From assembly GCA_050613775.1 (NCBI GenBank), contig JBODTK010000133.1, forward strand, positions 248,001 to 312,000: 64,000 nt of DNA, in the 5' to 3' direction. A program made the translations under genes and the position numbers. Positions 23,101-64,000 of this stretch are shown here, in pieces (position 1 is the first letter of the stretch; every line of letters begins with the position of its first letter). The notes below the pieces were generated by a model. That model was not told the origin of the DNA and made no database searches. It worked only from the letters and a program-made list of their open reading frames with translations. The stretch comes from Neocallimastix sp. 'constans' (Eukaryota).

Positions 23101-24065
23101 TTATTTTTATTTTTAATTTCTTCATCTTTGTTTAATTTATTATCATTAATAACATGATTATTATTATTGTTTAAATCTGGAGAAGATTTATTTATTTTAA
23201 TGCTCTCATTAAAGGTAATCGTCTTTAAATTCTTTCTAACTTTAGGTTTTAGTATTTTCCTTTTAGATAAATCAACTTCTTCTTCTACTTCATCTTTTTC
23301 TTCTTCATCTTTTTGGAAAATATCACTTCTATTAGTTGTATTCGCTTTAGCTTTCCTAATTTCCGTTCCAGCATCTAAAGAAAACTCCTTTCTTTTGGCA
23401 GCATCAACAAAATATTTCTTCTTCTCAGGAACGTTATTGGAATTTAAGGGAGAACGTTCACTCCCTCTTAGTAGTTTAAACGTTCGTTTGAGACATTAGC
23501 AGAACCACTTGATTCTTCATTTAGCATTCTTTGGTATTTCAAATATTCAAAGTGATTAAATTTTGGACAATTGTATTTCTTGTGACCTTCTTCGTTACAA
23601 AAATAGCACATCTGTACTCTATATTTACCTTTATTTCCATCATTATTCAAATTATTATTTTTGAAATTATTATCACGTGATTCGTGAGTGACTGGTTTAT
23701 TATTAAAAATTTTGTTATTATGTGAATTAAATTTTTGGTTGTAAGAAGAATTTTCATTAGAGTTAATAGTTCTTTTTCCACATTCATTTTCAACTTCATC
23801 AATTAATTCAGCTGTAGAAAAAGCTTTTGCTAGACTAATTCTTTTTCCTGCAAGTTTAACACCTTTCCATGCTTCTTTCTTGTTAAAAATTGACTTCAAA
23901 TAATCAGAAACAGAAATGCATCTACGATCATCTTCATCGAGTTTATTATATAATTCCTTATATTCTTTATTAAATTCCTTTATATTTCCTCTGGTAGATA
24001 TTGCCATATTTTTAAGTTTATCAATGATGTCTTCTGGATCCATATATAAGTCATGAAATTTTATT
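20180..24065 (-). mobile_element. Internally deleted Gypsy relative of the 11-20 kb element: partial gag (23468-24043), protease ORF (21285-23480), integrase tail, PPT and probable 3' LTR (~20180-21074)
   Basis: CYFCNEEGHKKYNC knuckle; KCNITFGQILD and LLIDSGS shared with the neighbour; no RT or RNase H; KLDPYFVGPY remnant near 21220-21245; PPT AAGGTGGGACGAA; LTR far end tentative. Confidence 0.8.
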
Positions 24066-24760
24066 ATTTTGAATATTTTATATCTTGTTTATTTTTAATT
24101 TTTACTTACTTACTTATTAAATTTTATTTTTATTTTTAATTTTATTTTTTAAAAAACAAAAACTAAATCATATATAAAATGTTAGTTATTTCGAATTTAT
24201 AAATTGATAAATTCATAATTTATTTTATGTAATACAAATTTTAATTAGAATTAGTTATTTTTATTTATTAATAATTTAGTCTATTAAACAAAATATTTAA
24301 AAAAAAATAGTTACACGATAATATTATTATAACTATTTAAGATGAATCCAGTGATTCCTAGTAGTCATTATTTATTATTGGATAAGCAATTATCATTAGA
24401 TACTATTTTGGATAATATGTATAATCAAATATGTATCTTTAAAAAATCATAAATTATATAAATCGGGAGATATTAATTTTGAATTAGAATTTAGATTAAG
24501 AAATAAATACATCAATATTGATATTAATGATTTTGTTAAATGTATGAGTTGTCAACATCACGAGTATTTATTCAAAGAAAATAAAACGACAAGATACAGA
24601 ATTATATGCGAATCAAGCTATCCAGCCAACATAAACGAAGATCAGGATATAAATCTAGAAAAATGAAGAAGAAAATAAAAAAGGAAAAGAAAAGGAAGAA
24701 GAAAACAAAGAAAATAAAAAGATTTCGAAGCTTTATACATATGTCGATACCAATTCAGAA
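24066..24760 (+). pseudogene. Duplicate of 62875-63582: upstream region and 5' part of the capping enzyme-like gene (ATG 24342), frameshifted and cut by an LTR
   Basis: Near-identical sequence; extra A in two A-runs; ends at TGTTAAG 24761. Confidence 0.9.
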
Positions 24761-33269: not shown

Positions 33270-35903
33270 ATGAAATCATTATTTATTACTGTAATTATTT
33301 TATTAATAAATTACAGTTTTTGTTCTAATGATAAAGGTAAATATCTTGAATTAAATAAAACTGAAGAAGGAGCATATTTAGTTGCTAAAAGTTGCACAGA
33401 AGTATATATTTGTAGCAAACATAGTAAGAAATATATATTATTTGCGATGATATTTTAGATGGATGTTTTTATAGAGATGAAAAATTAGACAATGAAATTA
33501 ATATTGATGATGGTGATTTTAATAATCCTGATAAATGTTCAATAAAAAGATATGCTACCATTTCAACTGAGTCTTGCTATATGTCAAGTACTGGAGAAAT
33601 TAAAACTAAAGGTAAATTTAATTTATTTGAAGTACCTTATTATGATATTGATATTAAAAATAATCGTGTTTTGACTGAATGGGGATGGTGTGCATATTCA
33701 TATGAAACTATCGATGCTAATTAGATGTCATTTCTTGATAAAAAATTAAAACTTAATCAAATTAATATTCCAGGAACACATGATACAGGAATATATGATA
33801 TTGGAAAAGTTTGGAAAAGTTCTACTGAAAATAACAAAATAATAGATGGATCATTTTTTGCATCAGTAAAATCTTTAACTGCACAAACTCAAGATTTAAA
33901 TATTAAAGATCAATTAAAAAATGGAATTAGATATTTAGATATAAGATTACATTTAGATGCTAAAGACGAACCACCTTATCTTTATCATGGATATTTCGCT
34001 TGTTATGATAGTAATACTGAAGATTATCTCTATCTTAAAAATGTTCTTAAATATTGTATTTATTTCTTAGTTGATCATAAAGATGAAACAATTATTCTTC
34101 ATTTAAAAAGGGAAGGAATTAAAGATGAAATTACAAATAATGATATAGCTAAATTAATTGAATCAATTGCTAAAGAAAAATATAATAAAGAAAAAAGATA
34201 TTTAGATTATTTTTATATTCCTGATGATATTGATAACGAATATACTAACAAATATATGCCAACTCTTGAAGAAACAAAAGGTAGAATAGTTTTTTTATCA
34301 AGATCTTCATTTTATTATACTGATAAAACTATTAAACCAACAAATAAAAAAACATAAAAAAATGAACCCAAGTATCCAATAGGATTTTTAAGAAATGTAG
34401 CTGATAAAACAAAATGTTCTTCTATTCCTGTTCCTGTTATATTTTCTAGTAAATATGAAATTTGTGAGCCAGAAATAAAAGGTAATTTCCGTTGTCAAGA
34501 TGACTATAATCTTAATAAAAATTTGAAATGGTTAATAGTAGAAAATATGTTATTGGAAGAAAGTGAATTTAATAATAAAAATAATGATTTAGTACATTCA
34601 TTAAATTTTATGAATATAGCTTTTACAGCTTTTAATTATATTACAACTTCAGCAACATATATGAATAAAAAACTAACTAAATTTCTTCAAGATTATTCAG
34701 TTCCAAATGAATGGTTTATTTTAGATTTTCCATCTATAAATGTTATTCGTGAAATTTATAATTCTAATTTTGGTAAAAATAAACCAGTTTATAAACCAAG
34801 TGCTTATATTGATCTTGATGTAATTAATAAAAAAAATAAAGAAAGTAATTTTAGCTTTGTTTTTCTACTCTTGGTATTGTTTGTGATTTTGGTAATTATG
34901 ATTCACATCATGATTTAAAACGAAGAGATGTTATGAATAATGAAAATAACAAAGAAACAATGATATGTCTTCAACGTATAATAAATACTGACGAACAAGG
35001 AAATCCTCAAGATATAATAAAAACTAATTATAAATGTATTGATAATGATTTGAATAAATGGTATGTTAAACAAAATAATGATGATGAAAAAATATACTCT
35101 ATTATTTCATTATATGATAATAAATGTTTAAATTACTCTGGTGATATATTATACGTCGAAAATGTAAAGAAAATAATATATATGAAAAATTCACTTTTAA
35201 AGATAATATTATATATTCGCAATTTGATACAACAAAATGCTTTAATAATTTTGATATTTACCCTACGTCTATTAAACCTAAATCATATGAAAATTTAACT
35301 TGTTCTACTAATTTTGCTAGACTTGGAATTAAATGTTGTTCTAATTCGGATACTCAAGTTAAATATGTTGATGAAGTTGGTAATTGGAGTGTAGAAAATG
35401 GTGAGCTTTGTGGTATTGGTTACGAGAGATGTTCATGGAGTATTTTAGGTTACCCATGTTGTTCTCTATATCCAACTGTCGTTTATACTGATGAAAATGG
35501 TTCTTGGGGTTATGAAGATGGTCAATGGTGTGGTATTGGAGAAATTACACATGATTCTAAAGTACGTATTAAAAACAAAATGACTCAAGAATGTCTTATA
35601 ACTAATCTACATTCAGATAACACTATAGTTTTATTAGGTGATTGTAATCATAGTATATGGACTTATGAAAAGGATCAACTTATTTTAGATGCTACTAAAA
35701 AATGTTTATATACTATGAATTCCCAAAATGCAAGAATGACGGATTGTAATGAAGGAGATAATCAAATAAATCATCATATACATTTTAAGATAGTTGATAA
35801 TAAATACATTTGTATTAAAAATAATGTAGATCCCTACGATTATTGTTTGAATGGAAAATCTTTGAACTTTGAAACATGTAAGAACGAATTTTCTGAATGG
35901 TAT
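33270..35903 (+). pseudogene. Secreted PI-PLC X-domain protein with ricin-B-like domains and two fungal dockerin (CBM10-type) domains, disrupted
   Basis: Signal peptide; IPGTHD, QLKNGIRYLDIR, LYHG, ETIILHLKRE; dockerins at 35301-35540 (CC..VKYVDEVGNWSVENGELCGI; LGYPCC..VVYTDENGSWGYEDGQWCGI); several stops and frameshifts. Confidence 0.85.
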
Positions 35904-36452
35904 TGTAACGAAATCTTCATGTTGAGGTTCATATTAGAAAAGGAGTGTGAACATTAAATAAATAGATAAATTAACTAATTACTAAATTACACTAAAAGAA
36001 TTTATTATTACACATTATAAATTTTATTTAAAGAACTATTATTAAAAATATTTATTATTTATAAATTATATAATTATTTTATTGTTAAAAATACTTTATT
36101 AATATTAATATTTATTTTAATAACAATATGGGAAACCTTTCAATTATTATTCCTATTTCATTATCACTACTATTTCTACTATTTCTTTCCTCAGAAAGGC
36201 CCCCTCATATAAAATATGGATCATACATTTATTTTATACTATTTAATTACATTATTAGATCCAATCATTTAATTAATAAATTACATAAATTTAATACTTA
36301 AAATTATAAAATATAATATAAAAAAAAATTATTACATAGAATATAAGAAAATTATTAATAGTAAAAAATATAATAATATATTTTTATATAATAAATTATT
36401 AAAAATTTAATTAAAAATAACATTATTATTCTATTCTTTATCATTCAGTTAG

Positions 36453-46000: not shown

Positions 46001-46579
46001 TATAATTATTTTAGAGAAAACAAAATAAATTACGATGAAAATGAATACGGCTTTATTGTGGATAGTAATAGCGTTAAATTAGATACTAATGACATACAAA
46101 CTATTCTTGAAGAGGTAACAATAACCGGAACGAAAGGGATCACAAAAATAGAAACATATAATGACAATGATCAATATATAATCAACGTTACTGGTACCAA
46201 TCTGGATCCCTTGTTCAATAACAAATATATAGATCCTGAACTTTCATATTATCTAGTTTATAGTAATTCTAATGAGATAAGCTTTGATCAAAGAAAGCAA
46301 AATATTTTTAATCAATTAAAAAGAATTGTTGATAATGGTTCGAAAAACTACAATTACAAACATATAAGATTACTAACCAATTTTATGTGTCGAAATAATA
46401 AACTAAATCCAATGTCTCGTTTTGGTATGAACATCAATGAATATTCCTTTATTTCCCGATTGTCCTTTGAATATCCATATAAAATACTTCATGATGTCAT
46501 TTACGATATTGAGGATAATCTAACATCTGTATCCGCAAAATTAATTACAGGAATATATGATACAGAAAACAAATTATAA
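46001..46579 (+). pseudogene. rpb1: C-terminal fragment of a divergent RNA polymerase largest subunit (RPB1-like, probably viral)
   Basis: GTKGI..VTGTNL; NYKHIRLLTNFMC..MSRFGMN..RLSFE..DNLTSVSAKLITG matches the conserved RPB1 C-terminal region; no heptad CTD. Confidence 0.8.
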
Positions 46580-47174: not shown

Positions 47175-47790
47175 ATAACAAATATTATAATAAATATAAT
47201 AACACTCAAAAAAAACAAAAAAATTATTTTATTTTTTATTTATTATTTTTTTTTTTTTTATTCTAATTATTTTATTAATTACATTTATTATAATACTATA
47301 AGCCGCAAGGGTTGATATAGTATTAATATTAAAAAAAGTTTTATTAAAAAATTAAGTTTTATTAACTAAAAAATTAAAATAAAAAACACAAAGAGAAGAT
47401 TATTTTTTAATAAGAATTTTACTCATATTTATATTTTTTTCAAAAGTTAAAGTTATTAAAAAATAAAAATAAAAGTTTCTAAAAAGTTCTTAAAAATCGA
47501 AAAATTTAGAAAAAATATAAAACAATAGAATTAAGAATTTAATAGAATAAATTTTAATTAATTAAACACAAGAATTATCAAGAAATTCTAGTAATTTCTT
47601 GAACTATTAAGAATCTTCTAGATATTTTTTTTAGAATAAAACTATAAAATAATAATAAATGTGAATCGAACCCTAAGTAGTTTGATTCATAGTATTAGTT
47701 ACTAACAACTATACCAGAAATAATATTTTTTAAATTTAATTATTTGTTTTAAAACTTTATTGAAAAATAATACTAAATATTAAAATAATA

Positions 47791-47829
47791 TGTTAAGATA
47801 ATAACTGAAATTATCTAAAAACTTTAACA
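47791..47829. mobile_element. 39-bp ends-only derivative of the 44161-45180 LTR family
   Basis: TGTTAAGATAATAACTGAA joined to ATTATCTAAAAACTTTAACA; TSD TAATA on both sides. Confidence 0.85.
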
Positions 47830-48048
47830 TAATAAAATAATTGTAATTATTGATTCTGTTATAAATATAAATACTTATTTATATTTATTGAATGTTTTTA
47901 TTGATTTTTAAAAAATTTTAAAAAATATAAAAAAATAAATATAATAATTATACAATAGAAATTATTTAAAATTAAAATAAAATATCAATATATTTATTAT
48001 TGTTGACCTTGAAATTAGTTGAAGAAAACTAATAGCTATATTTTATTT

Positions 48049-50780
48049 TTATATTAAATCGGCAATATCATTACTATAACACTTTAATAAATTTTTAAAA
48101 CCCGTTCTTATCAAATTTCTATAATAATAATTATAATCAATCTTAGGCTTAATGATAGTTTGATCATGAGCGTGTTCTTCGCAGATTTTGTTGTACAAAT
48201 CCATTGACATCATTTTATTTCCTACATAGTTATTATTCGAATTAAAGGTGAAGGTTGTAGTGTCGAAAACAAAGTAATCTACCTTGTCACCATACTTGTA
48301 GTTCAATTGGTGTTTTTTGTGATTATTAACAAACAACAAAACCTTATTGTTTTTATCGATATATTTGCGACCCACACTTAATTTCATTACCATATCACTT
48401 GGGACATTTCCTGATTTTAAATCTGATATCATCTTCAAAACTTTTTCCCTTATGTAGTTCTTCGGATAGTCATAGAGTATCATATAAATAAATATCTTAT
48501 AATAATCCCTAATAAATATACATGTATTTTTCTTTATTATATCAATACCCTTTATATACAATTTCGAATTATTAGCTAGAAGACCTACATAATTTTTTTG
48601 GATATAATAATCATTCGTGAAAAGGTATTTTCGTATTTTAAATGCATCTCTTCCGGCAAAAGATTAGTGACCATTTCAGCTGCATCGATACTGTCCTTTA
48701 TAAATTTATCCTTTTTATTTTTATTACTATCCATAGGATTATTGTTACCTTTTTTCTGGAGATCATCATTAGCATTATTTCCAAGCGTAGGGCATTGTCC
48801 TTTATTATTTTTTTCGTTATTTTTATTTTTATTACAATTATTACTGTTATCTCCGTGTTTATCTATGTCATGGCCATTACTTTTACAATTTTTATATTCA
48901 ATAAGACATGAATCGGTATCCCCATAGATCACTCTAAAATTAGTTTTTTCATGCAAGATATCAATCGCTTTGTTTAAATAATTTCTTCCCATACCTGTGG
49001 TACATTCAGCACCAGGTAAAAAACTTAAATATTCTAATAGCTTAGAACCGAGACAACCGTAAATGGAGTTAGTCTGGATTTTAAGTGCATACTGTTTTTT
49101 ATCATATATAATGTAATCTGAACCCTGGGCGTTTTTCATATAATTTTTATAGCGTACACGCTCCGTTAATAATACTTTCATTATACGAGGTAAAATACCC
49201 TCATGATATTTTGTAAAATAATAAATTTTATTATTTCCAATATCGATGGTGTGATAAGAATTCTGAGTGTAATTTTTTATATCTTTCTTGTTAATTATCG
49301 TAGTGTAGCATATGTTATGAGTGATGATTACACTTGGATATAAACTGGTGAAATCAAGCATAGTGCAATAGTTGTAAACTCCGAGTTCCGGGTATATGAC
49401 GGTAGCGCCCTGATAATCACTCGTTTTGGTGGAATTCTTGTCAATGAAGATGTCGTTGTCATAGCAAAACTTGTACAGCAAGTTAGTTAGTTTCTTGCTT
49501 TGGCCGGACTTATCGACCTCATCGATACGGATTCTAGATATCTTGGCTACTTCTATCAATTGGATCCACTGGTGCGAAACCTTGAATATTTCGAGAGTTA
49601 AGATGGAATCCATTATACAATAAACGGCTACCTTTTTTAACGCTTCCTCGGTGTTTTCATGGATTAGATAAAACATATCTTTGTACAGCAAATCAATTTT
49701 TCGCTTTTTTAACAACTTTTCCGAAACATAATTTAAGCTGGATGATGGTAAATTCAACGATTTGGCATATTTATATATATCGATGGCTAAACGACCTGGA
49801 GTATATATCTCAAACTCGTCATTCCACAATTCATTGAACTCTGTTATTTTATTGACGATACGACTTGCAGAAAAGCACGTCGAAGATTCATTACTTATTA
49901 AATATATCCCAATTCTCTGCATCATATACATATAATAAAAGCCAAACGTATTGTATCCAATAATGAGATCAGGATCATGAATTCTTATCTGATTAAAGAA
50001 TTCACACAACAACTCATACTCTGTTTCCACAAATATTATTTCATATTCTTCATTAAATGTATTTGCTTTTGTATTATTTTCTTCTTTCTTTCTATCCATC
50101 CTCTTAATAAATTCTTCGATTTCTTCATAATTTTCATACTTGTTTTTTCTTTCTTCGTTTTCCTTTTTTCTATTTTCAATATCTATTTTAGTTTGTGTCT
50201 CCAGACTTGAACTATTGTATATTAAATTTCTAAAATTATTGTATCTATTTCGATTAGAAGATTTCAAGCTATTATTACTTTTCAAGATCGACATGTATTT
50301 TTGGTATTTATTGAAATTTCTATTCCTACTAATATCTTGGCTTTCAATAGAACTGGATATATTCGAAGGTGTTCTATCCATCCCGTTCAAATCCAGAAAT
50401 CTATTTTTATATTTATTATCATCCATAATGCTATTTTTATGGTTGTCATCAATTCTGCTATTTTTATTATCGTCTACACTTTTATTGTTATTGTCATCCA
50501 TACAATTATTGTTATTATTATTATTAGCATTATTAAAATGTTCTTTTTTCTTTAAATATGTCTTAATTGACGTCTGAATTAAATTGACATTTTTCTTTTT
50601 TTCCTAAGATGCTTTCAATACAGGAGTGGAATTTCGGTGAGTCCTTTTAATTTCTGATGGCATATCAAATATACTTCCGGTCACTTCACTTTTGAATTTT
50701 TCAATATCAACGAATGAAATAAATCTGGGATCGATATCACTAAGATTTTCATGATTAATAATTTCGGTATCCTTTATTTG
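48049..50780 (-). pseudogene. polB: Family B DNA polymerase (not protein-primed type, probably viral); N-terminus cut off, TAG at 50604-50606, frameshift near 48595
   Basis: DPDLIIGYN, YCIMD, YQGATV..DFTSLYPS, KQYALKIQTNSIYG, YGDTDS; KKNY..KGID restored by adding one A. Confidence 0.93.
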
Positions 50781-50882
50781 CTACAATCATTATTGAATAC
50801 TTAATTTGATATTTAATTAGAAATTAAAATATATTATTATGAAATATATATAAAATATAGATTAATAATAATAGTTAATAAT

Positions 50883-53800
50883 TGTAAAGATGTGATTATC
50901 CCAATCACATTTTAAATTAAAAATTTTTCTTGTGTAATTCAAAAATGTAAATTATTCTTTGATTTATAAAATAATAAACAAAGTAAATAAATCATATGAA
51001 CTAAATTTTTGAATTATATTCTTTAAGCCACAAGATAAATTTTTAATGTAATAATTTTTATAAAATTTAATTCTGAGAAAATTATTGTTGTAAAATAATT
51101 TAAATGAATTAATTAAAGTTTAAAACAAAATAAATTAATAATTTATTTTGTGAAAATTAAGTTTCAAAATTTAATCATGACTCCTTTAACATTGTTTTTA
51201 AATCGAAAATAAATAAAGACTTTACTTATAATATTAAAATAATAAATAAATAATAAATGTACTTAATTTTAATTATTTAGTATTTAGTTTAATTAATAAT
51301 TATATTTTTCTAAATTTAGCTATAGTTTATAAATTTATTATTTAATAAAATTCATTAGGATAGTTTTATATTAAAATATATGTAATTTAAATAAAATAAT
51401 ATATTATCAATGTATTTAGGAAAAGTATAAATAGAAGATACTTTTCACATTTTTTCTCGATGTAATTGTTATTTTAACGAATAACTATTAAATATTAATA
51501 AAATATATTTTAATAAAAAAATTTTTAATAAAATAAAATTTATTGTATTTTGTTATTGTAATCTATTTTTGTGTTTTCTTTTACAATAACAATTACCTTT
51601 TATTTTAAAAAATACGTTGCAATAACAGAATCCGCAAGCTGAAGATTTTTTTGGTCTACCGCCGGTCAAGAGTTTTTATTCAGAGCTAACCATTTTGGAA
51701 TCAATAATTGGACTGTAATCGAGGACCACAATTCAGGGCTTTAATGAACATTGTATCTAGTAATACAGACTAAAAACAAGTGAGAAAACTCCTTCTAATA
51801 ACCAGAAAAAAAAAATAATTATTCAAAATTAATAAGCCATTTATAAAAAATTAGTTTACTCGACCGTCACCATACATAATTGGATAGAGACCTGGTCGAC
51901 TTTACTAATATAATTATAAAGTTATTAATTTTGAGAAAACAAAACAAAACAAAGCAAAAAATAAATAAATAAATAATTAAATATTAAATTTTCTTAAATT
52001 GGAAGACTTAGAAAGACTCTTTGAAACATTATCCTTGGAAGAGATAATGGAGAATCACGAAGAAAACAATGCATTTGGTGTAATTAATAAGCCGCCATCA
52101 TTTACTGGAAGAAAATGCGACCTTGAGGGATTCCTTACAAGGGCAGAACTAGCAATGGAATCCCGACCAAATCAATTTAATAACGATGCAGCAAGAGTAA
52201 GATTCCTAATGTCTTACATGCTTGGGAAACCTTTGGAATGGGTCTCTTGCTTGCGTAGAAATAATAGCCCATTACTTAACTCATACGATGACTTCGTGAA
52301 AGAGTTAAAATCAAACTTCGGTGATTATACCAGCGAATCCATTGTTGCCAATAGTAAGCTGTGTAGTATTTACCAGAAGAAGAATGGGCACGTATTTGAA
52401 TATATTTCAGAATTCCAAAGGATCGCTCAATATTCTGACTTTAATGAAAGTGCAAAAATATATATGTTCATTAGAGGATTAAAACAACCTTTAAGAGAGA
52501 AACTTGCTTTAATCGATCCAAATCCTAGATCTCTTGATAGGTTAACTACTACAGTATTAAATATAGAAAGCTTAATTAGAAGAAACGAAAAGGTAGAATT
52601 TTTTAGTAATACTGCTGCGCATAACGATCCAATGGACATCGATCTTTACCGTATAAAAAGAGGTCCCAACGAGAGAAAATATACTTACCGTCCAATAAAG
52701 TATAAAGAAGAAAAGAGAGATTATTCAGAAGAAAGAAAGAAGGGCGTTTGTTTCCTATGTAAGCAACCTGGACATCTTAAATTCAATTGTCCAAATAAGA
52801 TAAAGCCAAAAAACTTAAGGTTAATTATGAAGGGAAAAGATACCGATGATAGTGTTATGGGTAACTTTTCAAATATGCGTAGAATAAGAAGACTTACTGA
52901 ACAAGAAGAACTTGTAATGATGAGAGAAGTTACTTGTGAAGACAAAAATCAACAAAAAACAAATATTTTAGATTTTTTTATCAAGACTAATGAGATTGAA
53001 GAAAGAAAGGTTAAGGTTCTTATTGACTCTGGATCCGACTTAAATTTTATCCATCCGGAGGTCGTAAAGAAACTTGGTATTAAGACCGAAAGGATCAACA
53101 AGTCTTTTAGCGTCTCAGGACTTGGATATGGAATCGCTAATGTCACTAAAGAAACTGAAAAATGTATTCTACGTTATAAGAACCACTTAGAAATTATTCA
53201 ATTTTATGTTCTCCGAATCCCAGATGTAGATGTGATTCTAGGACTACCTTGGATTGATAAGCACAGTCCAAGTAATTACCATGATGCTAAGAAAATCGCT
53301 TTTAGTTCTGGTTTTTGTGCTCACCATTGTAATAATGGAAAAAGAAGAAGAAGCAAAAGAAAAAGGACTACTAAGAGAAATAAGATGGCTATTCTTGAAC
53401 AAGAACTTAAAGTAACTGATGAAGAAAAAAGGGAAGAACCATCCTGTTCAAGATCCACTATAAAATACTATTCTGACTCCGAATCCGAACCCGAACCATA
53501 TTTCAAAGGACGAGTTGTTCGAACTATAAATGATGAATCCGATAGTGATTATGATTTAGATGATAATTTTATGTACGATAGTATTAGTGAAAGTGAATTA
53601 GAAAAAAGTTTAGATTGTGAAAATAATAGTGATAGTATAGTTAAAAATGACTCATGTAATAATATTAATTCATGTAATAATATTAATGTTTCATGTAAAA
53701 AGTTTAAATCTTGTAACGAAAATGAAAATTTAAATAAAAATCAAAATTCGGTCACCGTACCAATCATCTATTTAGATTATAAAGAAGTGTTTAATGAAAA

Positions 53801-54950
53801 AAATTGTAGTGTGTTACCTCCACATAGAGTATATGATTGTGAGATAAATTTAAAAGATAATTCAATTTTATTTTATGGTCCTTTGTATCCTTTGACGGAA
53901 TTAGAGCGTGAAGAATTAAAGAAACAATTAAAGGAATTATTAGATAAAGGATTCATTAGAAAATCCACTTCTCCTGCTGGTGCTCCAGTTCTCTTTGTTA
54001 GAAAAAAAGATGGTACATTACGTTTAGTTATTGATTATAGAAAGTTAAATGAAATGACGATACGTAATTCATATCCTTTACCTTTAATTAGTGAACTACT
54101 TGATAGAGTTAAAGGTGCTAAAATATTTACGAAACTAGATTTAAAATCTGCATATAATCTAGTCCGTATTAAAGAAGGCGATGAATATAAAACTGCCTTT
54201 AGAACCAGATATGGGCATTTTGAATTCTTAGTTATGCCTTTCGGACTAAAGAATGCACCTGCTACTTTTCAGCACTTTATCAATGATGTTCTCAGTGATT
54301 ATTTAGATGATTTTGTCATTTCTTATATTGATGATATTCTTATCTTTTCCAATAATATCGAAGAGCATCACAAACATGTTAAAAAGGTATTAAAAAGATT
54401 ACTTGAAAATAATTTAGTTGTGAAATTGGAAAAATGTGAATTTGATAAATCGGAAACCACTTTCCTTGGCTATGTAATTTCGAAAGATGGATTAAAAATG
54501 GATAATGAAAAAGTTAAAGCAATTTTAGAATGGCCTTCTCCAACAAACGTTAAGGAAGTCCAATCGTTCATCGGTCTTTGCAATTATTATCGTCTTTTCA
54601 TAAAAGATTTTGCTAAAATCGCAAATCCTATTCACAAACTCACTAGAAAAAATGTTGAATTTGTTTGGGGTAAAGATCAACAAGACGCTTTCGATAAGTT
54701 AAAGCATTTATTTACTTCTGCTCCTATCTTAAGAAATCCCGACAGTGATAAACCTTTTATAGTTGAAACTGATGCTAGTAACTTTGCTGTTGGAGCTGTA
54801 TTATCTCAAGAATTTGAAGGTAAATTACATCCTGTTGCATTTCTCTCGAAAAGTTTAACTAAATGTCAGAGGAATTACCAAATTTATGATAAAGAATTGT
54901 TAGCAATCAAATTAGCTCTTGAAGAATGGCGACATTACTTAGAAGGTGCT
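50883..54950 (+). mobile_element. Gypsy element: 5' LTR 50883-51585 and gag-pol, truncated in RNase H
   Basis: TGTAAAGA...TTTTACA LTR; ORF breaks at WRHYLEGA; pol closely resembles bases 1-720. Confidence 0.93.
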
Positions 54951-54974
54951 ATCATTATTGAATACTTAATTTGA
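51999..54974 (+). CDS. Single-frame Gag-protease-RT-partial RNase H polyprotein
   Basis: CFLCKQPGHLKFNC, LIDSGS, YIDDILI, ETDAS. Confidence 0.92.
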   Translation: MEDLERLFETLSLEEIMENHEENNAFGVINKPPSFTGRKCDLEGFLTRAELAMESRPNQFNNDAARVRFLMSYMLGKPLEWVSCLRRNNSPLLNSYDDFVKELKSNFGDYTSESIVANSKLCSIYQKKNGHVFEYISEFQRIAQYSDFNESAKIYMFIRGLKQPLREKLALIDPNPRSLDRLTTTVLNIESLIRRNEKVEFFSNTAAHNDPMDIDLYRIKRGPNERKYTYRPIKYKEEKRDYSEERKKGVCFLCKQPGHLKFNCPNKIKPKNLRLIMKGKDTDDSVMGNFSNMRRIRRLTEQEELVMMREVTCEDKNQQKTNILDFFIKTNEIEERKVKVLIDSGSDLNFIHPEVVKKLGIKTERINKSFSVSGLGYGIANVTKETEKCILRYKNHLEIIQFYVLRIPDVDVILGLPWIDKHSPSNYHDAKKIAFSSGFCAHHCNNGKRRRSKRKRTTKRNKMAILEQELKVTDEEKREEPSCSRSTIKYYSDSESEPEPYFKGRVVRTINDESDSDYDLDDNFMYDSISESELEKSLDCENNSDSIVKNDSCNNINSCNNINVSCKKFKSCNENENLNKNQNSVTVPIIYLDYKEVFNEKNCSVLPPHRVYDCEINLKDNSILFYGPLYPLTELEREELKKQLKELLDKGFIRKSTSPAGAPVLFVRKKDGTLRLVIDYRKLNEMTIRNSYPLPLISELLDRVKGAKIFTKLDLKSAYNLVRIKEGDEYKTAFRTRYGHFEFLVMPFGLKNAPATFQHFINDVLSDYLDDFVISYIDDILIFSNNIEEHHKHVKKVLKRLLENNLVVKLEKCEFDKSETTFLGYVISKDGLKMDNEKVKAILEWPSPTNVKEVQSFIGLCNYYRLFIKDFAKIANPIHKLTRKNVEFVWGKDQQDAFDKLKHLFTSAPILRNPDSDKPFIVETDASNFAVGAVLSQEFEGKLHPVAFLSKSLTKCQRNYQIYDKELLAIKLALEEWRHYLEGAIIIEYLI

Positions 54975-55199
54975 TATTTAATTAGAAATTAAAATATATT
55001 ATTATGAAATATATATAAAATATAGATTAATAATAATAGTTAATAATTATATAATAAAATAATGTAAATAAAATAAATGATGTAAAATAGTTGAATTCAT
55101 TGAAAATTTTTATTGATATTCCTGAAATAATAACCATATAAATTAAAAAATAAATAACAATTAAAAGTAAAATTATTAATTACATTTAATTTAATTTGG

Positions 55200-56040
55200 T
55201 GTAATTTTATTTGTTTTATTTATTATAATTGTTATTATTAATAAATTTGTTTTTTTTTTTACGTTTTTATAAAGTTTTGATTTAAAAAATAGATTATAAG
55301 TCAAAAATTATAATAACACTAAATAACACAAAATTGTTTTATAAACAACTAAGTTTTATTATATTTAGATTTTAAAATAATCTTTATTAATTATTAGTGT
55401 TATTAACAATAAATCGTTAATAACAATTACATCGATTAAAATACATGAAATTTGGTTAACTATTTATATTTTTATCTTATTACATTTAGAATATATAATT
55501 CCTATTGAATTATATTATCTAACTATTTATTTAAAAACAATACTAACCTAAACTAATAATAAATAATTAACTATTACTAAATAAAGAGAATTATAATTAA
55601 TAACTAAAATAAATATAATCAATTCTAATTGAGTTCATTTATTATTTATTTATTATTTAAATATTATTAGTAAATTTATTATATATTTTCTATTTTAAAA
55701 TAATATAAAAGTTGTCATAATTATTTAATATAAATTTAGCATAAAATGCCGTAAGTTTCAACATGACTAATTGCATAGTTTCATGTTGTTAATTTATCTT
55801 GTAAAAAACCTTAACTCTTATTATTTAAATTAAATTACATAAAAAGAAATGATTTTCAATTACTAGTTTCACAAGAGAAATTTTTAATTTATTAATATGA
55901 TTGGGAAGAAGTCGAAGTTTTGTTTAAAATTATTTGCAATAATTTTATACACGTGATTTTTAATAGATTTATTTCAATTTTACTTAAATTTATGATTAAA
56001 TTTAATTAAAATTTATAAAGATATTAATAATATCTTTACA
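55200..56040 (-). repeat. Solo LTR of the same family as the 2537 LTR
   Basis: Reverse-complement match; TG...CA ends; flanks do not form a TSD. Confidence 0.85.
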
Positions 56041-56389
56041 GTTTTATTATTATTTATTTTATATACATATACTTCTTTATTTAAAATATTAATTAATGAT
56101 TTTTTTTTAATTCTTGTTGATTTTTATTGATTATTCTTTTAATTTTTAAAAGTATATTTAATAATATTACAAGTAAATATTTCAATAATAATTTTAAAAC
56201 AGACAAATTTAATAACTAGCAATTTAATTGAATAAATATTATTTTTTTTTTTAAAATGAAAATTAATTTATAAAATAATAGATACATATATATCATTAAA
56301 TATATAAATTTTATATTATTGGTTTCTTCAGAAGAAAGAAAGAAGTTCTAAATAACCATCATCCGATAATTTATTTCTTAATTGTACTT

Positions 56390-57970
56390 TTGAAATATGA
56401 TGAAAGTAAACAAACTAAATCGTACAAACTATTGAATAAATATTTCGAAGAAAATAATATAAGAACATCGGATGGATATAATAATATTTATGATGAAATA
56501 AAAGAAAACAAAATAAACGAAATAAATGAGAAACTTGGTAATATAAATATCGATGGGAATGATAATTCAAAAAATAAACGAATAAAGACGGATATTATTG
56601 ATATTATTTAGAGTTGCATTGATGAGTATGGGGAACGTGAAGTTAATATGGCAAAATTAATGACGATTAAAAAGTACTTCAGTAAAGCTGTAATAAATAG
56701 CAAAATTATTTCCAAAATATTTATCGTTCTAAATCTTGGTTATCTGGTATTCAGTGATAACGAATGGTATAAGTTTTCGTATGAACGTAACGGATGGGAA
56801 AAGCTAAGTATTTACAATCTCGCCAAAGAAGTCAATCTTCACTTAGTGAATGAATTAAAAGAGCTCTGCTTGGAATACCACTACTCACTCGAAGGACTTA
56901 CCAATAAAATATTATCGTTTTTGAACAAAAACGGTATTACTCATAACAACTTGGATCAATTCGAAACATTCTTCTACACCGAAAATTTTATTTATCGAAT
57001 AAATAAAAACTACGTTCTAAGATTCGAAGATTGCGTCTACGACTTCAATAAGAAATCATCACGTCCTGGTCGCCCAAGCGATTTCTGTTTGAAATCAACC
57101 AATTACAAGTACTACAGCGAGCACAGGGGTAAGATAGCAGAGGTCAAACAATTTCTTAAAGATATTTTTGTAGAGGATGAATTGATTAAATATGTGGTGA
57201 AGATTTTAGCTTCGACGCTTACCTTAGGTAATATATTACGTTCGATTGTATTTTTTATTGGCTCGGGTCGAAATGGGAAAACCACCTTCACGAACATGCT
57301 ACATCTTGCTTTAGGGGATTATGCTGCCACTCCAAATGTTTCCTTATTTTTAGGAAAGTCGGTAACCGCCGATAAACCGAGTCCACATATGATAGACCTT
57401 AATAATTCAAGAGTCGCCATATGTGAGGAACCTGACGGTCGCTCGATTAATATTACTGGTAACACAAAGGCCATTACCGGTAATGTTGGCTACATTAAAT
57501 CCAGATCTTTATACAAGGATCTTCAAACCGTGTATGTGGATCTATTACCGATTATCAATACCAATGATAAATTGACCATTTCAAACTTGGATAACGCATT
57601 AATTGATCGTATTTTGGTGATTCCATTTACTCAACGATTTGTCAATAAAAAGAATATTTCCATTCTAACTTCCACTCAAAACATCAACAATCCTTCTGTA
57701 AAGCATGCCAATCCAACATGGCAAGGACCGAAAATTCAAGCTTATGCCGAGGCTCTTATCCATTTGCTGATTCAGAATTATCAGGAAGATTACACTACCC
57801 TAGAAATTCCTTCAATGGTCATTGAAGCTACCAAGTCATTTATTATGCGTAGTGATCATATAGCCAGATTCCTAGAAAAAGATATAACTGGTGAAAATGA
57901 TAACTATGCTATTTCAATCGATGAGTGCTATTCCCGCTATAATATTATTATGTTATATTATATAACATAA
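56390..57970 (+). pseudogene. D5-like primase-helicase, SF3 helicase part; in-frame TAG at 56609, primase domain not seen
   Basis: GSGRNGKTT, RVAICEEPD, INTN, DRILVIPF; D5_N-like F..CVYDF..RPGRPSDFC; both ORFs share a frame. Confidence 0.9.
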
Positions 57971-58409
57971 TAATATTTAATAAAATATTAATATAATTTG
58001 AAATATTTAAATATTATTTAAACTCTATACTTTTTTATAGCAATAAAATTTTATTTGTTTTGATTTATTAATTCCTAGTAATAACTTAAGTATACTTTTA
58101 TAGTAAATATTTATTTAATGTAAAATTAACAAGAGTTTAAATTTTTTTATATATTTTATAATTAATATTATATAAAACTATGAATTATAATTTTTTTTTA
58201 AAAATTTAAATGAATTTATTTTACTTTCTTTTTTATTTATTCATATTTTTTAAAAACTTTTTGAAATATTTTATTCATATATTTATATAAATATATCTTT
58301 TTTAGTATACAGTTTATATAAGTAAATAAATAAATGTAATTTTAGAATCATTAATAACAGTGTAATGTTTTTTTTTTTTTAAAAAAATATTTTAATTTAT
58401 AAAATATTG

Positions 58410-58443
<34 letters not shown>

Positions 58444-58526
58444 AAAAAATTTATTTAGTTAAAGCAAAGCTTTATTTAATTCAAAATATAATTATTCAAT
58501 TTTATAATTTATTATAAAAGTTTTAT

Positions 58527-61500
58527 TTATTCGTAAATTTTAGTATGTAAACTAATAGACTCCAAGTAGGAATTCATGATGTTAAAACTATTTGATATTG
58601 AAAGTGTTTTTGTTGATGTATCACAACAAGTGTCTTTTGTACCTAATGAATGACATACATTACAATATTTTATTTCTGTAAGGTCAGTGTTATTTTTAAA
58701 CATATCTTGTAGGATGGCATTAGCCCTATGAGCTATTAATGCGTCTCTTTCCATTTCTCCAATACGTAATCCACTATTTTGTGATTTACCTTCCGTAGGC
58801 TGTTTACTTATTGCATTAACATTTCCGAGAATACGATAAAACATTTTTTCTTCGACTTGATGCTGTAATGCTGTGTAATAGCAAACTCCAACAAAGGCTT
58901 CTCCTATGAATTTACCGGTGATGGAATCCACCATTTTTTCCATGATCGGAATAACGCTATCAATGTAGTTGGCTTCAAAATTTTTGATATCATTGCTCTC
59001 AATGGATGCATCGAAAAACGTTCCAAAACGTTGAGGATCCATCACCATACATTTTCCAACAAACATTTCAATTAAATGTCCTACTGTCACACGAGAAGGA
59101 AAGGCGTGTGGATTAACAATAATATCGGGAATAATTCCAAATTCGGTGCGTGGGTTTAATTGCTCTGGCATAATAGATCCAATTACTCCCTTCTAGGCAT
59201 ATCTACTTGCAAATTTATTGCCTTGTTACGGTTTATACAAATGACGAATTTCAACACAACAATAGCAAATATCATCCTCAACAAAGGTAGTACAATGATC
59301 CACATAAACCAGTCTTTTAAATATATTTTCGATATCTCTGACTTCATTTTTAGTAAAATTATATATACGGAAAAGTGGTTCATTACTATAAAACGAATTT
59401 CTAGCAATCAATGTATTTGGTTTAGGTAATCCATTTTCATAATTTGAATTGATATTAATCAAGATTTCATCTTGGATGCTGTAGGAAATATATTGATATC
59501 GATATTTTATATTAGCGAACATACCATTCTCAATACTAGTTTCATTGAATATTACACTGTCTTCTTGATTATTTCCAAATGCCATAATAGCGACGACTGC
59601 ATTCTGTCCATTAAATATATGGTAATTGTTGTTTTTCGTAATCAGGATGGATTGATCTCTTTCAATTTCAATATTGGACAACTCATTAATACTCTTTCTA
59701 AACTCTTCATTATCTAGATTAACTTTTTCTCAAATTTTGAATAAATTTATTTCAATTCATTATCTTTATCGAAAGTACCGCTGGAAGATTCTATATTTTT
59801 ATTATGATGTTCGTATTCCGGTTCTTGGTATTGTTTATTTTCATCGTTTCTTTCTTCAACATTTTTACAAAATTTGTTGCATAATCCATTATCATCATTA
59901 TTGTGACTTGAATCGGTATCTATCTCATTCTTTAAATTTTCATTATCGTCAGACTCCATATTCTTAAATAATTCCATAATTATCTCCGAATTAATATCGA
60001 TAGCCTCATTTCCACTCTTGGTCCGATTTATAAAAAACGTCAAAGATTCAAAATGGAATAATCATCTTGATAAGATTGCTTCTAACTTAGTCATGCAGAA
60101 TGGCTTCTGAGCGTTAATTAATTTTCTAGAATTATCATTAAAGTTAAAAATTGTACTATCATTAGACATACATTGTTTCGTCATACCGGCTTGAAATGTA
60201 AGTCGAGAAACATGATTATTACCTGGAAATGGTGATAACGCACTGATTAATCCAAAAATAAAATTTGGGTCGAGTTCTTCATATTCGAAATCGCTATTAC
60301 TTATATACTCAGCAACGTCAATAAATCTAATACCAAAGACAATATTACCTTTCCGAACTCTTAGAGGTCTTACAATTCTTCCTTCATCAGTGAAAAGGTA
60401 ATAAGCTACTTCATCAAATATGCAGCTAATAAAAGGATATCTTAATTTTAGATCTCTGTAAGTAAATTCGGCCAAGTTGCAGGTAGTGAAACTTATGAAT
60501 CTAGAATTCAATAATACTGGATATTCTCTTTTATCACTTTGTTTGTTCTCTTTAAAGTCATTATAATGAGGAGAATCATAAAGTACTGACGATAAGTAGG
60601 ATAAATCCATAGTAAAATCAGGAGCAATCAATACCGATAGTCCAAAATACTTCACTAGCCCTACATCCTTAGACTCTGGTGTTTCAAAGGGACAAAAGTA
60701 GCCGTATTGGTAGGACAAACGTAACTCCAAATTTTCACTTTCCGTATTAATTGGTATCTGTACTCTTCGAATATGCGATAACTTATCGTAATAAGACCGT
60801 TTGCTTAGCGTTTGAACAGCTATGGAAGAATATTCACAAAAATAAGACCTAATCGTACCGGATTTGACCATGTTATATAAAGTTAAATTCAAATTGGATA
60901 CAAAACTACTCGTGTCTAATTTTTTATTTTTTCTATCCATTCCAAAATATTTTATTTTTCGGTGTATGGAACAGGGGAAACAATCAATCCGATTACTAAA
61001 GTAAGACTTACTACTATTAAAATCTAAGAACACTCTCGCCATGCATAAATAGGTGTAAAATTTGGTGTTTATATCGTCATAGGAAGAACGATCACAATGT
61101 AAAGAATCTGGTGTGAGATAACTGTCGATCATGCCATTGATAATGCTAATGATTTCTTCTTTGGATTCCTTTCGATGAGATAAGATGGATTCTAGAGTGG
61201 TTTCTGGAGAAGAATCTGAAATCATTATTTCTATATTCTCAGGAATGTTTTTCCCAATGACATTTTCTATAATAATCTGTTTAATTTCACTCAATGAAAA
61301 TTCCGGCTTTAAATAACGAAGCACATACACTAACGAGATACTCTGCTTTTCGTGCGATTTAATTCCTTTAACACGTAATAACTGGAAAAATAAGGAATAA
61401 TAAAAGCGAATGTCTAAAAGAACGTGTCTTTTCATTTTCGTCAACTTTCTACGACAATCCTTACTCAAAAAAGTATAGTAGAAATCAAATTTTGTATGCT

Positions 61501-61978
61501 CATTACTAAAATTTTTTATAGATTTCTCATCCTTTCCCTTATTCAACACTTTTCTTACATATTCAATATACTTATAATCCGTAAACATTTCAGGCGATTG
61601 AAATTTTCCTTCCTTATTACATTCTTTATATTCAATACAATCATTTTTATAGATGAAAATGGGAGTACAAAATAACTCCTGAGAAATAATTATTTTTTCT
61701 ATTCCTTCGACGATAAACACACCATCTATCGGCGCTGGTATTTGTATTTCAAAAGAGTCATGCACTAAAGAAATAAAATAGGTTTTTTTCTGAATCATCA
61801 AATGATCGTATTTCACTTCAGGGATAATAATGTCTAAAGGATTCAATTCCGGTTTTATTTGTTCAAGAAATAACTTGATATCAAAAAGCTTCTTTATAAA
61901 TAGTTTATCAAGATTAGCATAGACGCCATATTTATCAATAAACCATTTCATATAATCGATATTCTCTTTATCAACCAT
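58527..61978 (-). pseudogene. rpb2: Divergent RNA polymerase second-largest subunit (RPB2-like, probably viral), with stops and a frameshift
   Basis: GVFIVEGIEK, LSHIRR, CPFETPE..GLVK, GNNQEDS, GNKFASRYA*KG, PDIIVNPHAFPSR, QPTEGK, GLRIGEMERD, C-terminal CxxC. Confidence 0.95.
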
Positions 61979-62603
61979 GTCTTCTTGGAATGATTTCTTT
62001 GTTAAAAATTCTAAATTAATTTCTCATATATATAATCAGTTGAGAAACACACAGTATATTCCACCAGTAGAAAATGTATTTAAAATATTTTCTTTTATTG
62101 ATTTAGAAAAAGTTAAAGTAGTTATTGTTGGGGATGAACCTTATGATAATGAAAATGAAATAAGCGATATTGCTATTGCCACTAAAAAAACAAATATTTT
62201 ACCTCCCAAACTTTTGAGAAATATTTACACCAATTTAGAAAATCATGTCAAGGCTTATAAACCAATATCCAATCACCACTTGGATCGATGGCTTGACAAA
62301 GGGATATTCTTATGTAATTTTTGTTTTACTCGTCCACGTTTCCAATCTACTCCTAAGAGTTATTATTTATTATGGGAACCATTTATTAACAATTTGGTAG
62401 AATACATTTCTAATGATCATCCAGTAGTGTTCATACTATTTGATTCGATAGATTCATCCCTTCGTAAATCCATTAATGAGAGTAAATGTTCGGTTGTAAC
62501 TATTCCTCATCCTATTAAAAAGTATTATCAATTCAAAAATTCAAACTGTTTTGTTAAGGCTCAACAACTTGCTTGTAACCTTGGATATACTTTTAAGTGG
62601 TAA
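61977..62603 (+). CDS. ung: Uracil-DNA glycosylase, family 1-like, divergent
   Basis: PPVENVF, VKVVIVGDEPY, LRNIY, WLDKGIFLCN, VVFILF, PHP. Confidence 0.85.
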   Translation: MSSWNDFFVKNSKLISHIYNQLRNTQYIPPVENVFKIFSFIDLEKVKVVIVGDEPYDNENEISDIAIATKKTNILPPKLLRNIYTNLENHVKAYKPISNHHLDRWLDKGIFLCNFCFTRPRFQSTPKSYYLLWEPFINNLVEYISNDHPVVFILFDSIDSSLRKSINESKCSVVTIPHPIKKYYQFKNSNCFVKAQQLACNLGYTFKW

Positions 62604-63165
62604 CTTTGGTATAACTAAATTTAAATTTTACTTTAATTTCGATTTTATTAATGATTAATAAATACATAGCATTTGATTTATTCAATAAAATTTTATTAAA
62701 ATGGCAGGAATATTTTCATATAGTATTTTTTAATAATATTAAAGATTTTTAAAATATTATAATAAATTTCGAAATTAAAAAAAAAAAATATTAAATATGT
62801 TTTTAAATTAAATATTTTATTAAAAAATTAATAATATGTATATTCTATTTTCTTCAATGACAGTATTATATTTGATTTTGAATATTTTATATCTTGTTTA
62901 TTTTTAACTTTTACCTACTTACTTATTAAATTTTATTTTTATTTTTAATTTTACTTTTTAAAAAACAAAAACTAAATCATATATAAAACGTTAGTTATTT
63001 CGAATTTATAAATTGATAAATTCATAATTTATTTTATGTAATACAAATTTTAATTAGAATTAGTTATTTTTATTTATTAATAATTTAGTCTACTCAAATA
63101 GTATCTATTAAACAAAATATTTAAAAAAAAATAGTTACACGATAATATTATTATAACTATTTAAG

Positions 63166-64000
63166 ATGAATCCAGTGATTCCTAGTAGTCATTATTTATT
63201 ATTGGATAAGCAATTATCATTAGATACTATTTTGGATAATATGTATAATCAAATATGTATCTTTAAAAATCATAAATTATATAAATCGGGAGATATTAAT
63301 TTTGAATTAGAATTTAGATTAAGAAATAAATACATCAATATTGATATTAATGATTTTGTTAAATGTATGAGTTGTCAACATCACGAGTATTTATTCAAAG
63401 AAAATAAAACGACAAGATACAGAATTATATGCGAATCAAGCTATCCAGCCAACATAAACGAAGATCAGGATATAAATCTAGAAAATGAAGAAGAAAATAA
63501 AAAAGGAAAAGAAAAGGAAGAAGAAAACAAAGAAAATAAAAAGATTTCGAAGCTTTATACATATGTCGATACCAATTCAGAAAAGGAAATCACCGAAACG
63601 CTAAATGGAAAAGTTGAATTCACCAAAAAAATGACTTTGATGACGGCTTATTATTTCGTTTATAAAATTGTACTTAGTATTGAAACCAATCTAGATGTCA
63701 GCGACATAGTAAGTTTTCTAGACAACGGTTTGGTTGAAACAGAAACAGAAAATGGTTATAATAAAAAAATTAAATCTAATAAGGGGCTAAATATTTTACA
63801 ATTCATTACTCCAACTATAAAATATAGAAAATCATATATTCTTCACAAGGATGTACGGATTGATGTAACGAAGTATGAGGATAAAAGCCAATTCGATATT
63901 GATTTCTCAAGAAATATTAATCGTGAAAGAAGTGATATGATAAACATTGTACATGATATTATGTTATTACTTGATTGTTCTAATTTTGTATTAGATTATT
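63166..64000 (+). CDS. Putative viral mRNA capping enzyme, N-terminal RNA triphosphatase (tunnel-metalloenzyme) domain; runs off the window
   Basis: My translation is open from ATG 63166 to the end: FELEFRL, KIVLSIE, KYRKSY, VRIDVT, FDIDF in the order expected for ExExR, LSxE, KxRxS, RIDxT and ExE. Confidence 0.7.
   Translation, partial: MNPVIPSSHYLLLDKQLSLDTILDNMYNQICIFKNHKLYKSGDINFELEFRLRNKYINIDINDFVKCMSCQHHEYLFKENKTTRYRIICESSYPANINEDQDINLENEEENKKGKEKEEENKENKKISKLYTYVDTNSEKEITETLNGKVEFTKKMTLMTAYYFVYKIVLSIETNLDVSDIVSFLDNGLVETETENGYNKKIKSNKGLNILQFITPTIKYRKSYILHKDVRIDVTKYEDKSQFDIDFSRNINRERSDMINIVHDIMLLLDCSNFVLDY

What the first reader, a model, noticed from the sequence alone, without database searches (positions are those of the whole stretch)
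63166..64000. Capping enzyme-like ORF missed by the ORF track
Seen: 278 open codons up to the window edge with ordered RNA-triphosphatase-like motifs. Known: large cytoplasmic DNA viruses often fuse triphosphatase, guanylyltransferase and methyltransferase. Inference: the element capped its own transcripts, suggesting cytoplasmic transcription. The visible part is undisrupted, unlike most neighbours.
Basis: partly seen in the sequence, partly recalled or inferred. Interest (0 to 1): 0.7.

Follow-up and report, generated by a model that had tools for sequence, protein, structure and literature searches.

The report
Fossil capping enzyme, capsid-less fungal element
This is the front part of a viral mRNA-capping gene in a decayed, pithovirus-related insert in the genome of an anaerobic gut fungus; this copy is likely dead and the insert type is already published, but its many intact relatives hint at a small, possibly capsid-less element that would make its own capped mRNA.

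Summary
The ORF is real: 278 codons without a stop from the ATG at 63166 to the window edge. It is the RNA-triphosphatase end of a three-domain NCLDV-type capping enzyme. A 93%-identical full-length relative carries KTDG and a SAM motif, and its model matches vaccinia D1 and pithovirus/marseillevirus capping enzymes. Tunnel-enzyme catalytic residues line up in order across 50 distant relatives. The gene ends the block Rpb1c–PolB–D5–Rpb2–UDG–capping enzyme, the published order of 'fundsalphaviruses' in anaerobic gut fungi (Gong 2020), where it was labelled only a SAM methyltransferase. 'Undisrupted' means little. At the neighbours' break density, 278 clean codons are a coin toss. A glutamate found in 42 of 42 relatives is aspartate here, and the two nearest proxies for the unseen part stop before the methyltransferase. 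This copy is a likely dead fossil. The lead worth following lies in the relatives: 44 full-length copies in fungal assemblies, mostly on short contigs, repeated ~42 kb contig lengths, one circularly permuted 40 kb contig, and no capsid or packaging hit in these hosts in Gong's trees. That points to a ~40 kb capsid-less, self-transcribing element, unproven because I could not get its DNA.

The parts
63166..64000 (+). 5' 278 codons of a trifunctional mRNA capping enzyme (RNA triphosphatase domain and start of the linker); runs off the window; carries E244D and Y72H against its family
61977..62603 (+). Uracil-DNA glycosylase, full length (208 aa); its ATG overlaps the divergent Rpb2 ATG by 2 bases
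58527..61978 (-). RNA polymerase second-largest subunit (Rpb2-like), broken into at least four pieces
56333..57970 (+). D5 primase-helicase; one internal stop and a lost 3' end against a 595-aa relative
50757..55051 (+). Ty3/Gypsy-like retrotransposon block between PolB and D5, bounded by a ~100-130 nt direct repeat; gag-pol frame 51981-54974
   Evidence: the Ty3 label is my reading of the translated motifs, not a family search
48049..50774 (-). Family B DNA polymerase; one stop, one frameshift, first ~208 codons absent from the window
46001..46579 (+). C-terminal fragment of the largest RNA polymerase subunit (Rpb1 domain 5)
24058..24760 (+). Second, partial copy of the capping gene's upstream spacer and first ~139 codons, 96.7% identical, with two 1-nt insertions in the coding part
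33725..35957 (+). Host gene region (PI-PLC X domain, CBM10 dockerin, ricin-B lectin) showing that the block sits in fungal chromosomal DNA

Best explanation
The ORF is the predicted RNA-triphosphatase end of a three-domain viral mRNA capping enzyme, in a decayed pithovirus-related insert (fundsalphavirus) in the chromosome of an anaerobic gut fungus, and this copy is likely inactive. In the intact element the enzyme would remove the gamma-phosphate from transcripts made by the element's own RNA polymerase in a metal-dependent tunnel, transfer GMP through the KTDG lysine, and methylate guanine N7, so that messages made outside the nucleus can be translated. Shown: the ORF, the neighbours and their breaks, the domain layout and motifs of the relatives, the gene order. 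Inferred: enzyme activity, cytoplasmic site, inactivity of this copy, and what lies beyond 64000.
For: Full-length relatives of 799-964 aa carry ELEFR, KxDG and LLDIGxGxGxD in order; P0015 (838 aa) is 93% identical over all 278 residues. Its model (mean pLDDT 63) hits vaccinia D1 at E 3.5e-24 over ~800 columns; nine of the ten best viral hits are pithovirus, marseillevirus or Solumvirus capping enzymes, TM 0.43-0.49. In 50 distant compact capping enzymes (of 52 aligned; 2 dropped for no KxDG in range) the columns of window E47, E49, R86, K155, E173, R221, D244, D246 hold E 46, E 48, R 48, K 50, E 49, R 49, E 48, E 49, the residue types and order listed for yeast Cet1 in PMC2699512 (passages). 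A profile of those 52 hits three prokaryotic proteins with its N-terminal 150 positions (3sy3 E 1.7e-4, 1yem E 1e-3, 2dc4 E 0.01), which I recall as CYTH tunnel proteins. The window's PolB nests among PolBs from contigs with the species and lengths that Gong lists as fundsalphaviruses. Gene order matches Gong's Fig. S2 and consecutive accessions on a 34,666-bp N. constans contig. Decay: D244 where 42 of 42 relatives have E; P(no break in 278 codons) 0.47-0.57 at 6-8 breaks per ~2,960 neighbouring codons; proxies P0042 and P0009 keep KTDG but end before the methyltransferase.
Against: The tunnel fold was not seen directly: both models are unreliable in this domain (pLDDT 40), the window-only model had no Foldseek match at E<=0.001 and best Z 4.2 to unrelated folds, and the VIA alignments of the full-length model start at residue 264. 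Pfam finds no triphosphatase family for the ORF or among the first 25 families listed for 43 relatives; the Atlas match to PF02940 is weak (score 0.91-0.92, recognition 1658). I could not read the DNA beyond 64000; the two proxies disagree with each other downstream (88% identical), so at least one is another locus or a chimera. That E-to-D at this site kills activity is recalled from vaccinia/yeast work, not read here.
Confidence: 0.88

Rival explanations
1. This copy is a domesticated or still functional gene, kept intact while its neighbours decayed.
For: 278 open codons; UDG next door is also full length; identical D5 fragment on three contigs suggests an inherited locus.
Against: Open length expected about half the time; two departures at >=90% conserved columns, one a motif glutamate; nearest proxies truncated; depth 0-0.16 over 63168-63735 in two RNA-seq runs, though without proof that those strains carry the locus.
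Confidence: 0.07
2. The window's block is a dead chromosomal copy of a still active ~40 kb capsid-less element that replicates and transcribes itself in gut fungi. This is compatible with the best explanation and concerns the source, not this copy.
For: 44 of 81 named records are full length with all three motifs; 30 of 44 lie on contigs under 100 kb against 11 of 37 partial ones. Four of seven Logan members have longest contigs of 42.38-42.49 kb. One 40,310-bp contig in Gong's Fig. S2 has the gene order circularly permuted. Two PolBs lie 18 accessions apart on one 70,640-bp contig. None of the 14 fundsalphavirus hosts appears among fungal hits in Gong's capsid and A32 trees.
Against: No element DNA was obtained. 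Short contigs also arise from unresolved repeats; 14 of 44 full-length copies sit on contigs over 100 kb. Records are not independent and lists were capped at 15 per cluster. Pithoviruses themselves lack a usual capsid (recalled), so missing capsid hits do not prove the absence of particles.
Confidence: 0.35
3. The block is an integrated yeast-type linear killer plasmid (pGKL2-like), which also encodes RNA polymerase, helicase and a capping enzyme.
For: Same transcription gene set (PMC4405056 passages); chitin-binding domains recur beside these elements and one Zancudomyces contig has a zymocin-alpha-like chitinase next to PolB.
Against: Those plasmids use a protein-primed polymerase and no D5 primase; here PolB matches DNA_pol_B and its exonuclease domain and sits beside D5 and UDG, and Gong's trees place the genes with pitho-like viruses.
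Confidence: 0.03
4. Contaminating viral DNA misassembled into a fungal contig.
For: AT-rich, repeat-rich sequence is hard to assemble.
Against: A retrotransposon block interrupts the viral genes, stops and frameshifts are scattered through them, a partial copy lies 39 kb away, and a sister locus with 97.7% identical PolB occurs in another assembly.
Confidence: 0.02

Closest known systems
Fundsalphaviruses (Gong, Zhang and Han 2020, PMC7017919; main text through the methods and six of seven parts of the supplement read)
   Same: Host group, PolB clade, and order AdoMet_MTase-UDG-RPB2-D5-POL-RP1c; stops, frameshifts and nearby retrotransposons.
   Different: The paper calls this gene SAM/AdoMet methyltransferase; 'capping', 'triphosphatase', 'guanylyl', 'circular', 'tandem' and 'plasmid' do not occur in its main text and 'capping' not in its supplement. 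It does not discuss unit size or intact copies.
Trifunctional capping enzymes of Pimascovirales (Pithovirus, Orpheovirus, Marseilleviridae) and vaccinia D1
   Same: Triphosphatase, guanylyltransferase with OB fold, and N7 methyltransferase in one chain.
   Different: 12-16% identity; the window's lineage has E-x-D in the second acidic motif instead of E-x-E, and this copy has D-x-D; low-complexity insertions in the triphosphatase domain.
Yeast linear cytoplasmic plasmids (pGKL2 type; PMC4405056 passages)
   Same: RNA polymerase subunits, D11-like helicase and capping enzyme without a capsid module.
   Different: They use protein-primed PolB; this element has an RNA-primed-type PolB, D5 and UDG.
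Mriyaviruses (PMC11253617 passages)
   Same: 35-45 kb NCLDV relatives, the size suggested for the intact unit here.
   Different: They keep capsid and packaging ATPase and lack DNA and RNA polymerases: the mirror image.
Mycodnaviridae (PMC13533422; search listing and a term search)
   Same: NCLDV elements in zoosporic fungi.
   Different: A different clade; the paper's text has no mention of Neocallimastix, Piromyces or pithoviruses.

Membership tests
Trifunctional NCLDV capping enzyme | N-terminal metal-dependent triphosphatase with two acidic motifs and ordered R/K/E residues | tested here: met
   Eight catalytic-type columns align with 46-50 of 50 distant relatives; hhalign joins window residues 211-278 to that family. 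In this copy the second motif reads D-x-D.
Trifunctional NCLDV capping enzyme | Triphosphate tunnel fold by structure | tested here: inconclusive
   Models under pLDDT 50 in this domain; no match; only an indirect profile link and a weak Atlas hit.
Trifunctional NCLDV capping enzyme | KxDG guanylyltransferase downstream in the same frame | tested here: inconclusive
   Beyond the window edge; present in the 93-98% identical relatives P0015, P0041, P0042.
Trifunctional NCLDV capping enzyme | C-terminal cap N7 methyltransferase in the same frame | tested here: inconclusive
   Met in P0015 (Z 20.2, rmsd 2.9, 218 aligned to 1ri1); absent in frame in proxies P0041, P0042, P0009; not readable for this copy.
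Trifunctional NCLDV capping enzyme | Enzyme activity | not testable with these tools
   Needs assays.
Fundsalphavirus (Gong 2020) | PolB groups with the listed fungal sequences | tested here: met
   Nested with support 99-100 among PolBs of contigs matching Gong's species and lengths (281,989; 107,189; 42,401; 127,315; 168,386; 246,453 bp); quick FastTree, 28 of the PolB records held, no pithovirus sequence included.
Fundsalphavirus (Gong 2020) | Linked D5, RPB2, RPB1, SAM methyltransferase, UDG | tested here: met
   D5, Rpb2, Rpb1c, UDG and the gene bearing the methyltransferase lie in the published order.
Fundsalphavirus (Gong 2020) | Linked SNF2 helicase, RPB1 N-terminus, RPB5 | tested here: inconclusive
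   No such ORF among frames of 45 aa or more at 43400-58600; the block is cut off at Rpb1c and may continue beyond 64000.
Yeast linear cytoplasmic plasmids | Protein-primed PolB, no D5 primase | tested here: not met
   DNA_pol_B plus exonuclease domain next to D5.
Virion-forming Nucleocytoviricota | Major capsid protein and A32 packaging ATPase | not testable with these tools
   No intact element DNA obtained; none in the visible block; none for these hosts in Gong's Figs S9-S10 as text.

The most novel reading that the evidence does not exclude
Fundsalphaviruses of anaerobic gut fungi are not only fossils of a giant virus: they are living ~40 kb, ~18-gene capsid-less replicons that keep a pithovirus-type replication and transcription kit (RNA-primed PolB, D5, UDG, RNA polymerase, helicase, capping enzyme) plus chitin-binding cargo, persist in many variants per host, and now and then integrate and decay as here. 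They would be the smallest self-transcribing Nucleocytoviricota derivative and a second, independent route to the killer-plasmid way of life.
Probability: 0.33. Interest if true: 0.82.

Novelty: new member of a known kind. Interest (0 to 1): 0.45.

Why it matters
For the ORF alone: it corrects a published label, since the gene mapped as a SAM methyltransferase is a full three-step capping enzyme, which strengthens the case that these fungal elements transcribed in the cytoplasm. If the novel reading holds, cultured gut fungi already carry a minimal giant-virus transcription system on a ~40 kb replicon. That makes testable how far a nucleocytovirus can shrink and whether it can live without particles, and it supplies many natural single-chain capping enzymes of about 800-950 aa.

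Tried and rejected
No whole genome is held for the window, so the gene could not be extended. Eight scans of viral contigs and two of genome contigs gave no relative; two of metagenome contigs gave one 1,317-bp contig. No match in plasmids. phmmer of the ORF against PDB sequences: 0 hits. The window-only fold gave no usable match, Trypanosoma Cet1 at rank 10 with E 1.5 being noise level. RNA runs X23 and X24 show no depth over the viral genes but have no positive control; X15 and X17 are contigs from RNA libraries, not shown to be transcripts, and their habitat labels were not used. An idea that Gong's MCOG01000112 locus (PI-PLC and CBM10 beside POL) is this locus's orthologue was dropped: its POL falls in Gong's other gut-fungal clade. 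The reported Cas8b, intein and transposase Pfam hits are low-complexity noise. Five look-ups of earlier scan findings returned nothing. Ten paper searches found only Gong 2020 on these elements; 'fundsalphavirus' occurs in 1 paper of the library; subscription journals and bioRxiv supplements were not seen, so a later description may exist. The vaccinia D1 structure paper was not held. The capping-enzyme tree is the quick version; the careful search did not finish. No complex prediction was run.

Full report
Observation. Frame +1 is open from ATG 63166 to the window edge, 278 codons. The other five frames hold 15-41 stops and the chance of such a run at this composition is about 3e-13. The frame has no stop inside the window, so ordinary ORF lists skip it. 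The gene is real.

Setting. The window is AT-rich, full of retrotransposon-like gag-pol frames, and carries a CBM10 dockerin gene. Relatives with names come from Neocallimastix, Piromyces and Anaeromyces. A protein identical to the window's PolB over the whole query is annotated in a Neocallimastix record on a 733-kb contig. From 46001 to 64000 lie Rpb1 C-terminus (+), PolB (-), a retrotransposon block, D5 primase-helicase (+), Rpb2 (-), UDG (+) and this gene (+).

What the protein is. Pfam and PDB sequence searches of the ORF alone give nothing. Longer homologs do: six at E<=0.01, 44 with a profile. The full-length ones carry ELEFR, then AKTDG, PNDG and KIKT, then LLDIGxGxGGD. P0015 (838 aa) is 93% identical to all 278 residues. 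Its model matches vaccinia D1 at E 3.5e-24 over about 800 columns and, among viral models, pithovirus and marseillevirus capping enzymes best. The confident parts are the guanylyltransferase and the N7 methyltransferase (Z 15.7 to human guanylyltransferase, Z 20.2 to Encephalitozoon methyltransferase). The triphosphatase domain folded poorly in both jobs and matched nothing by itself. Sequence fills that gap. A profile search of 1.84 billion representatives gave 1,092 hits at E<=0.001, 150 listed. I aligned 52 of those, chosen as distant and 587-808 aa long; 50 had KxDG in range. In them the columns of window E47, E49, R86, K155, E173, R221, D244 and D246 hold the expected E, E, R, K, E, R, E, E in 46-50 of 50; R231 and S223 are not conserved (13 and 16 of 50). 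This is the type and order of essential residues listed for yeast Cet1 (PMC2699512, passages). hhalign links the two families from window residue 211 onward, not before. The profile of the 52 hits mRNA guanylyltransferases at E 2e-32, cap methyltransferases at E 3e-14 and, with its first 170 positions, three prokaryotic proteins that I recall as CYTH tunnel enzymes (E 1.7e-4 to 0.01); 2 of 52 match PF02940.

Is this copy alive? Probably not. PolB has a stop, a frameshift and no first 208 codons; D5 has a stop and a lost end; Rpb2 is in at least four pieces; UDG is whole. At 6-8 breaks in about 2,960 codons, 278 clean codons have probability 0.47-0.57. Of 86 columns conserved at 90% or more, the window departs at two: H72 (Y in 35 of 36) and D244 (E in 42 of 42). 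D244 lies in the second acidic motif; in the wider set 113 records read E there and 2 read D, the window and P0042 (counting only true motif matches). P0042 is otherwise identical to window residues 156-278 but for a two-residue gap, continues through KTDG and ends near residue 526; P0009, from a contig whose PolB gene model is 97.7% identical to the one matching the window, ends near residue 475. Neither reaches the methyltransferase, but they differ from each other, so this is suggestive only. Two RNA-seq runs show depth 0-0.16 over the first 570 bases of the gene, with no control for strain. A second partial copy at 24058-24760 has two frameshifts and no coding substitutions, a recent duplication.

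What is known. Gong et al. 2020 (PMC7017919; main text through the methods and supplement parts 1-3 and 5-7 read, figures as extracted text) described PolB-defined, pithovirus-related 'fundsalphaviruses' in 14 fungi, with 26 copies in N. californiae. Their Fig. S2 shows AdoMet_MTase-UDG-RPB2-D5-POL-RP1c-helicase-RP1n, the window's order. The window's PolB nests among PolBs on contigs of the species and lengths they list. They never call the gene a capping enzyme. [quoted passage not shown]

The lead beyond the window. I copied 81 named records of this family. Forty-four are full length with all three motifs; 30 of these lie on contigs under 100 kb, against 11 of 37 partial ones (Fisher p 0.0008). 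The caveats are real: only the longest contig is given, lists stop at 15 per cluster, records are related, and repeats also break contigs. Most full-length copies belong to a sister lineage about 48% identical to the window's; the window's lineage has one full-length named record, on a 34,666-bp contig where PolB, D5, UDG and capping enzyme have accessions ending 511, 512, 514 and 515. A third lineage is known from seven Logan/ENA proteins on 30 contigs, with longest contigs 42,490, 42,473, 42,416, 42,384, 39,579, 28,339 and 27,066 bp; its host and gene content are unknown. One 70,640-bp contig holds two PolBs 18 accessions apart, which suggests, if accessions follow position, a unit of about 18 genes. 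Gong's 40,310-bp contig starts with POL and ends with D5, a circular permutation. None of the 14 host species appears among fungal hits in their capsid and A32 trees, though those trees may not show every hit. Chitin-binding domains recur beside the element, and one Zancudomyces contig has LysM, ChtBD1 and a zymocin-alpha-like chitinase next to POL. In two RNA libraries, contigs cover D5; of 15 amino-acid differences listed for X15, 9 match the intact allele and 6 do not, so they come from sister copies and are not shown to be transcripts. Together this fits a ~40 kb capsid-less replicon, but recent tandem integrations of a small virus fit too, and every attempt to fetch element DNA failed. 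I give it one chance in three.

Verdict. Observation confirmed, interpretation supported, locus ordinary and likely dead. Interest 0.45, carried by the relatives rather than by this ORF.

Noticed in passing
window 24058-24760 (+): Partial duplicate of the capping gene's 5' end and upstream spacer, 39 kb from the main block, with two 1-nt insertions.
   Followed up: yes
window 61976-61979: The ATGs of Rpb2 (-) and UDG (+) overlap in CATG, leaving no intergenic room; each promoter would lie inside the other gene if both starts are real.
   Followed up: no
window 62578-63184 (run X15): One contig joins the end of UDG to the start of the capping gene, skipping 605 bases; a sister copy may lack the AT-rich spacer.
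   Followed up: no
window 59747-60043 (-): Rpb2 carries an N/D/E-rich low-complexity stretch; PolB and the capping enzyme have similar insertions, varying between lineages.
   Followed up: no
window 43470-43984 and 45175-45689: 515-nt inverted repeat, 99% complementary, also matching 36500-36967: likely LTR copies of the retrotransposon at 37768-43445, one inverted, at the left edge of the viral block.
   Followed up: partly
window 46966-47199: 13/39-nt AT-rich tandem array between Rpb1c and PolB.
   Followed up: no
L001 3-604: A metallophosphoesterase-like frame (DMHG, LGDWFD, LGNHD; my reading) runs into the C-terminal half of a 60%-identical capping gene: a rearranged copy or chimera.
   Followed up: no
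P0227: A 595-aa D5 of this lineage is filed under a Methanosphaera metagenome bin on a 12-kb contig, likely a binning contaminant.
   Followed up: no
P0299-P0399: A large unnamed family of compact three-domain capping enzymes, many 610-720 aa, shorter than vaccinia D1; source unknown.
   Followed up: partly
window 61977-62603: The UDG reads GDEPY where family-1 enzymes have GQDPY (recalled); the intact relative P0210 has the same, so it is a lineage trait.
   Followed up: no
window 30556-31835 (-): Broken MULE transposase.
   Followed up: partly
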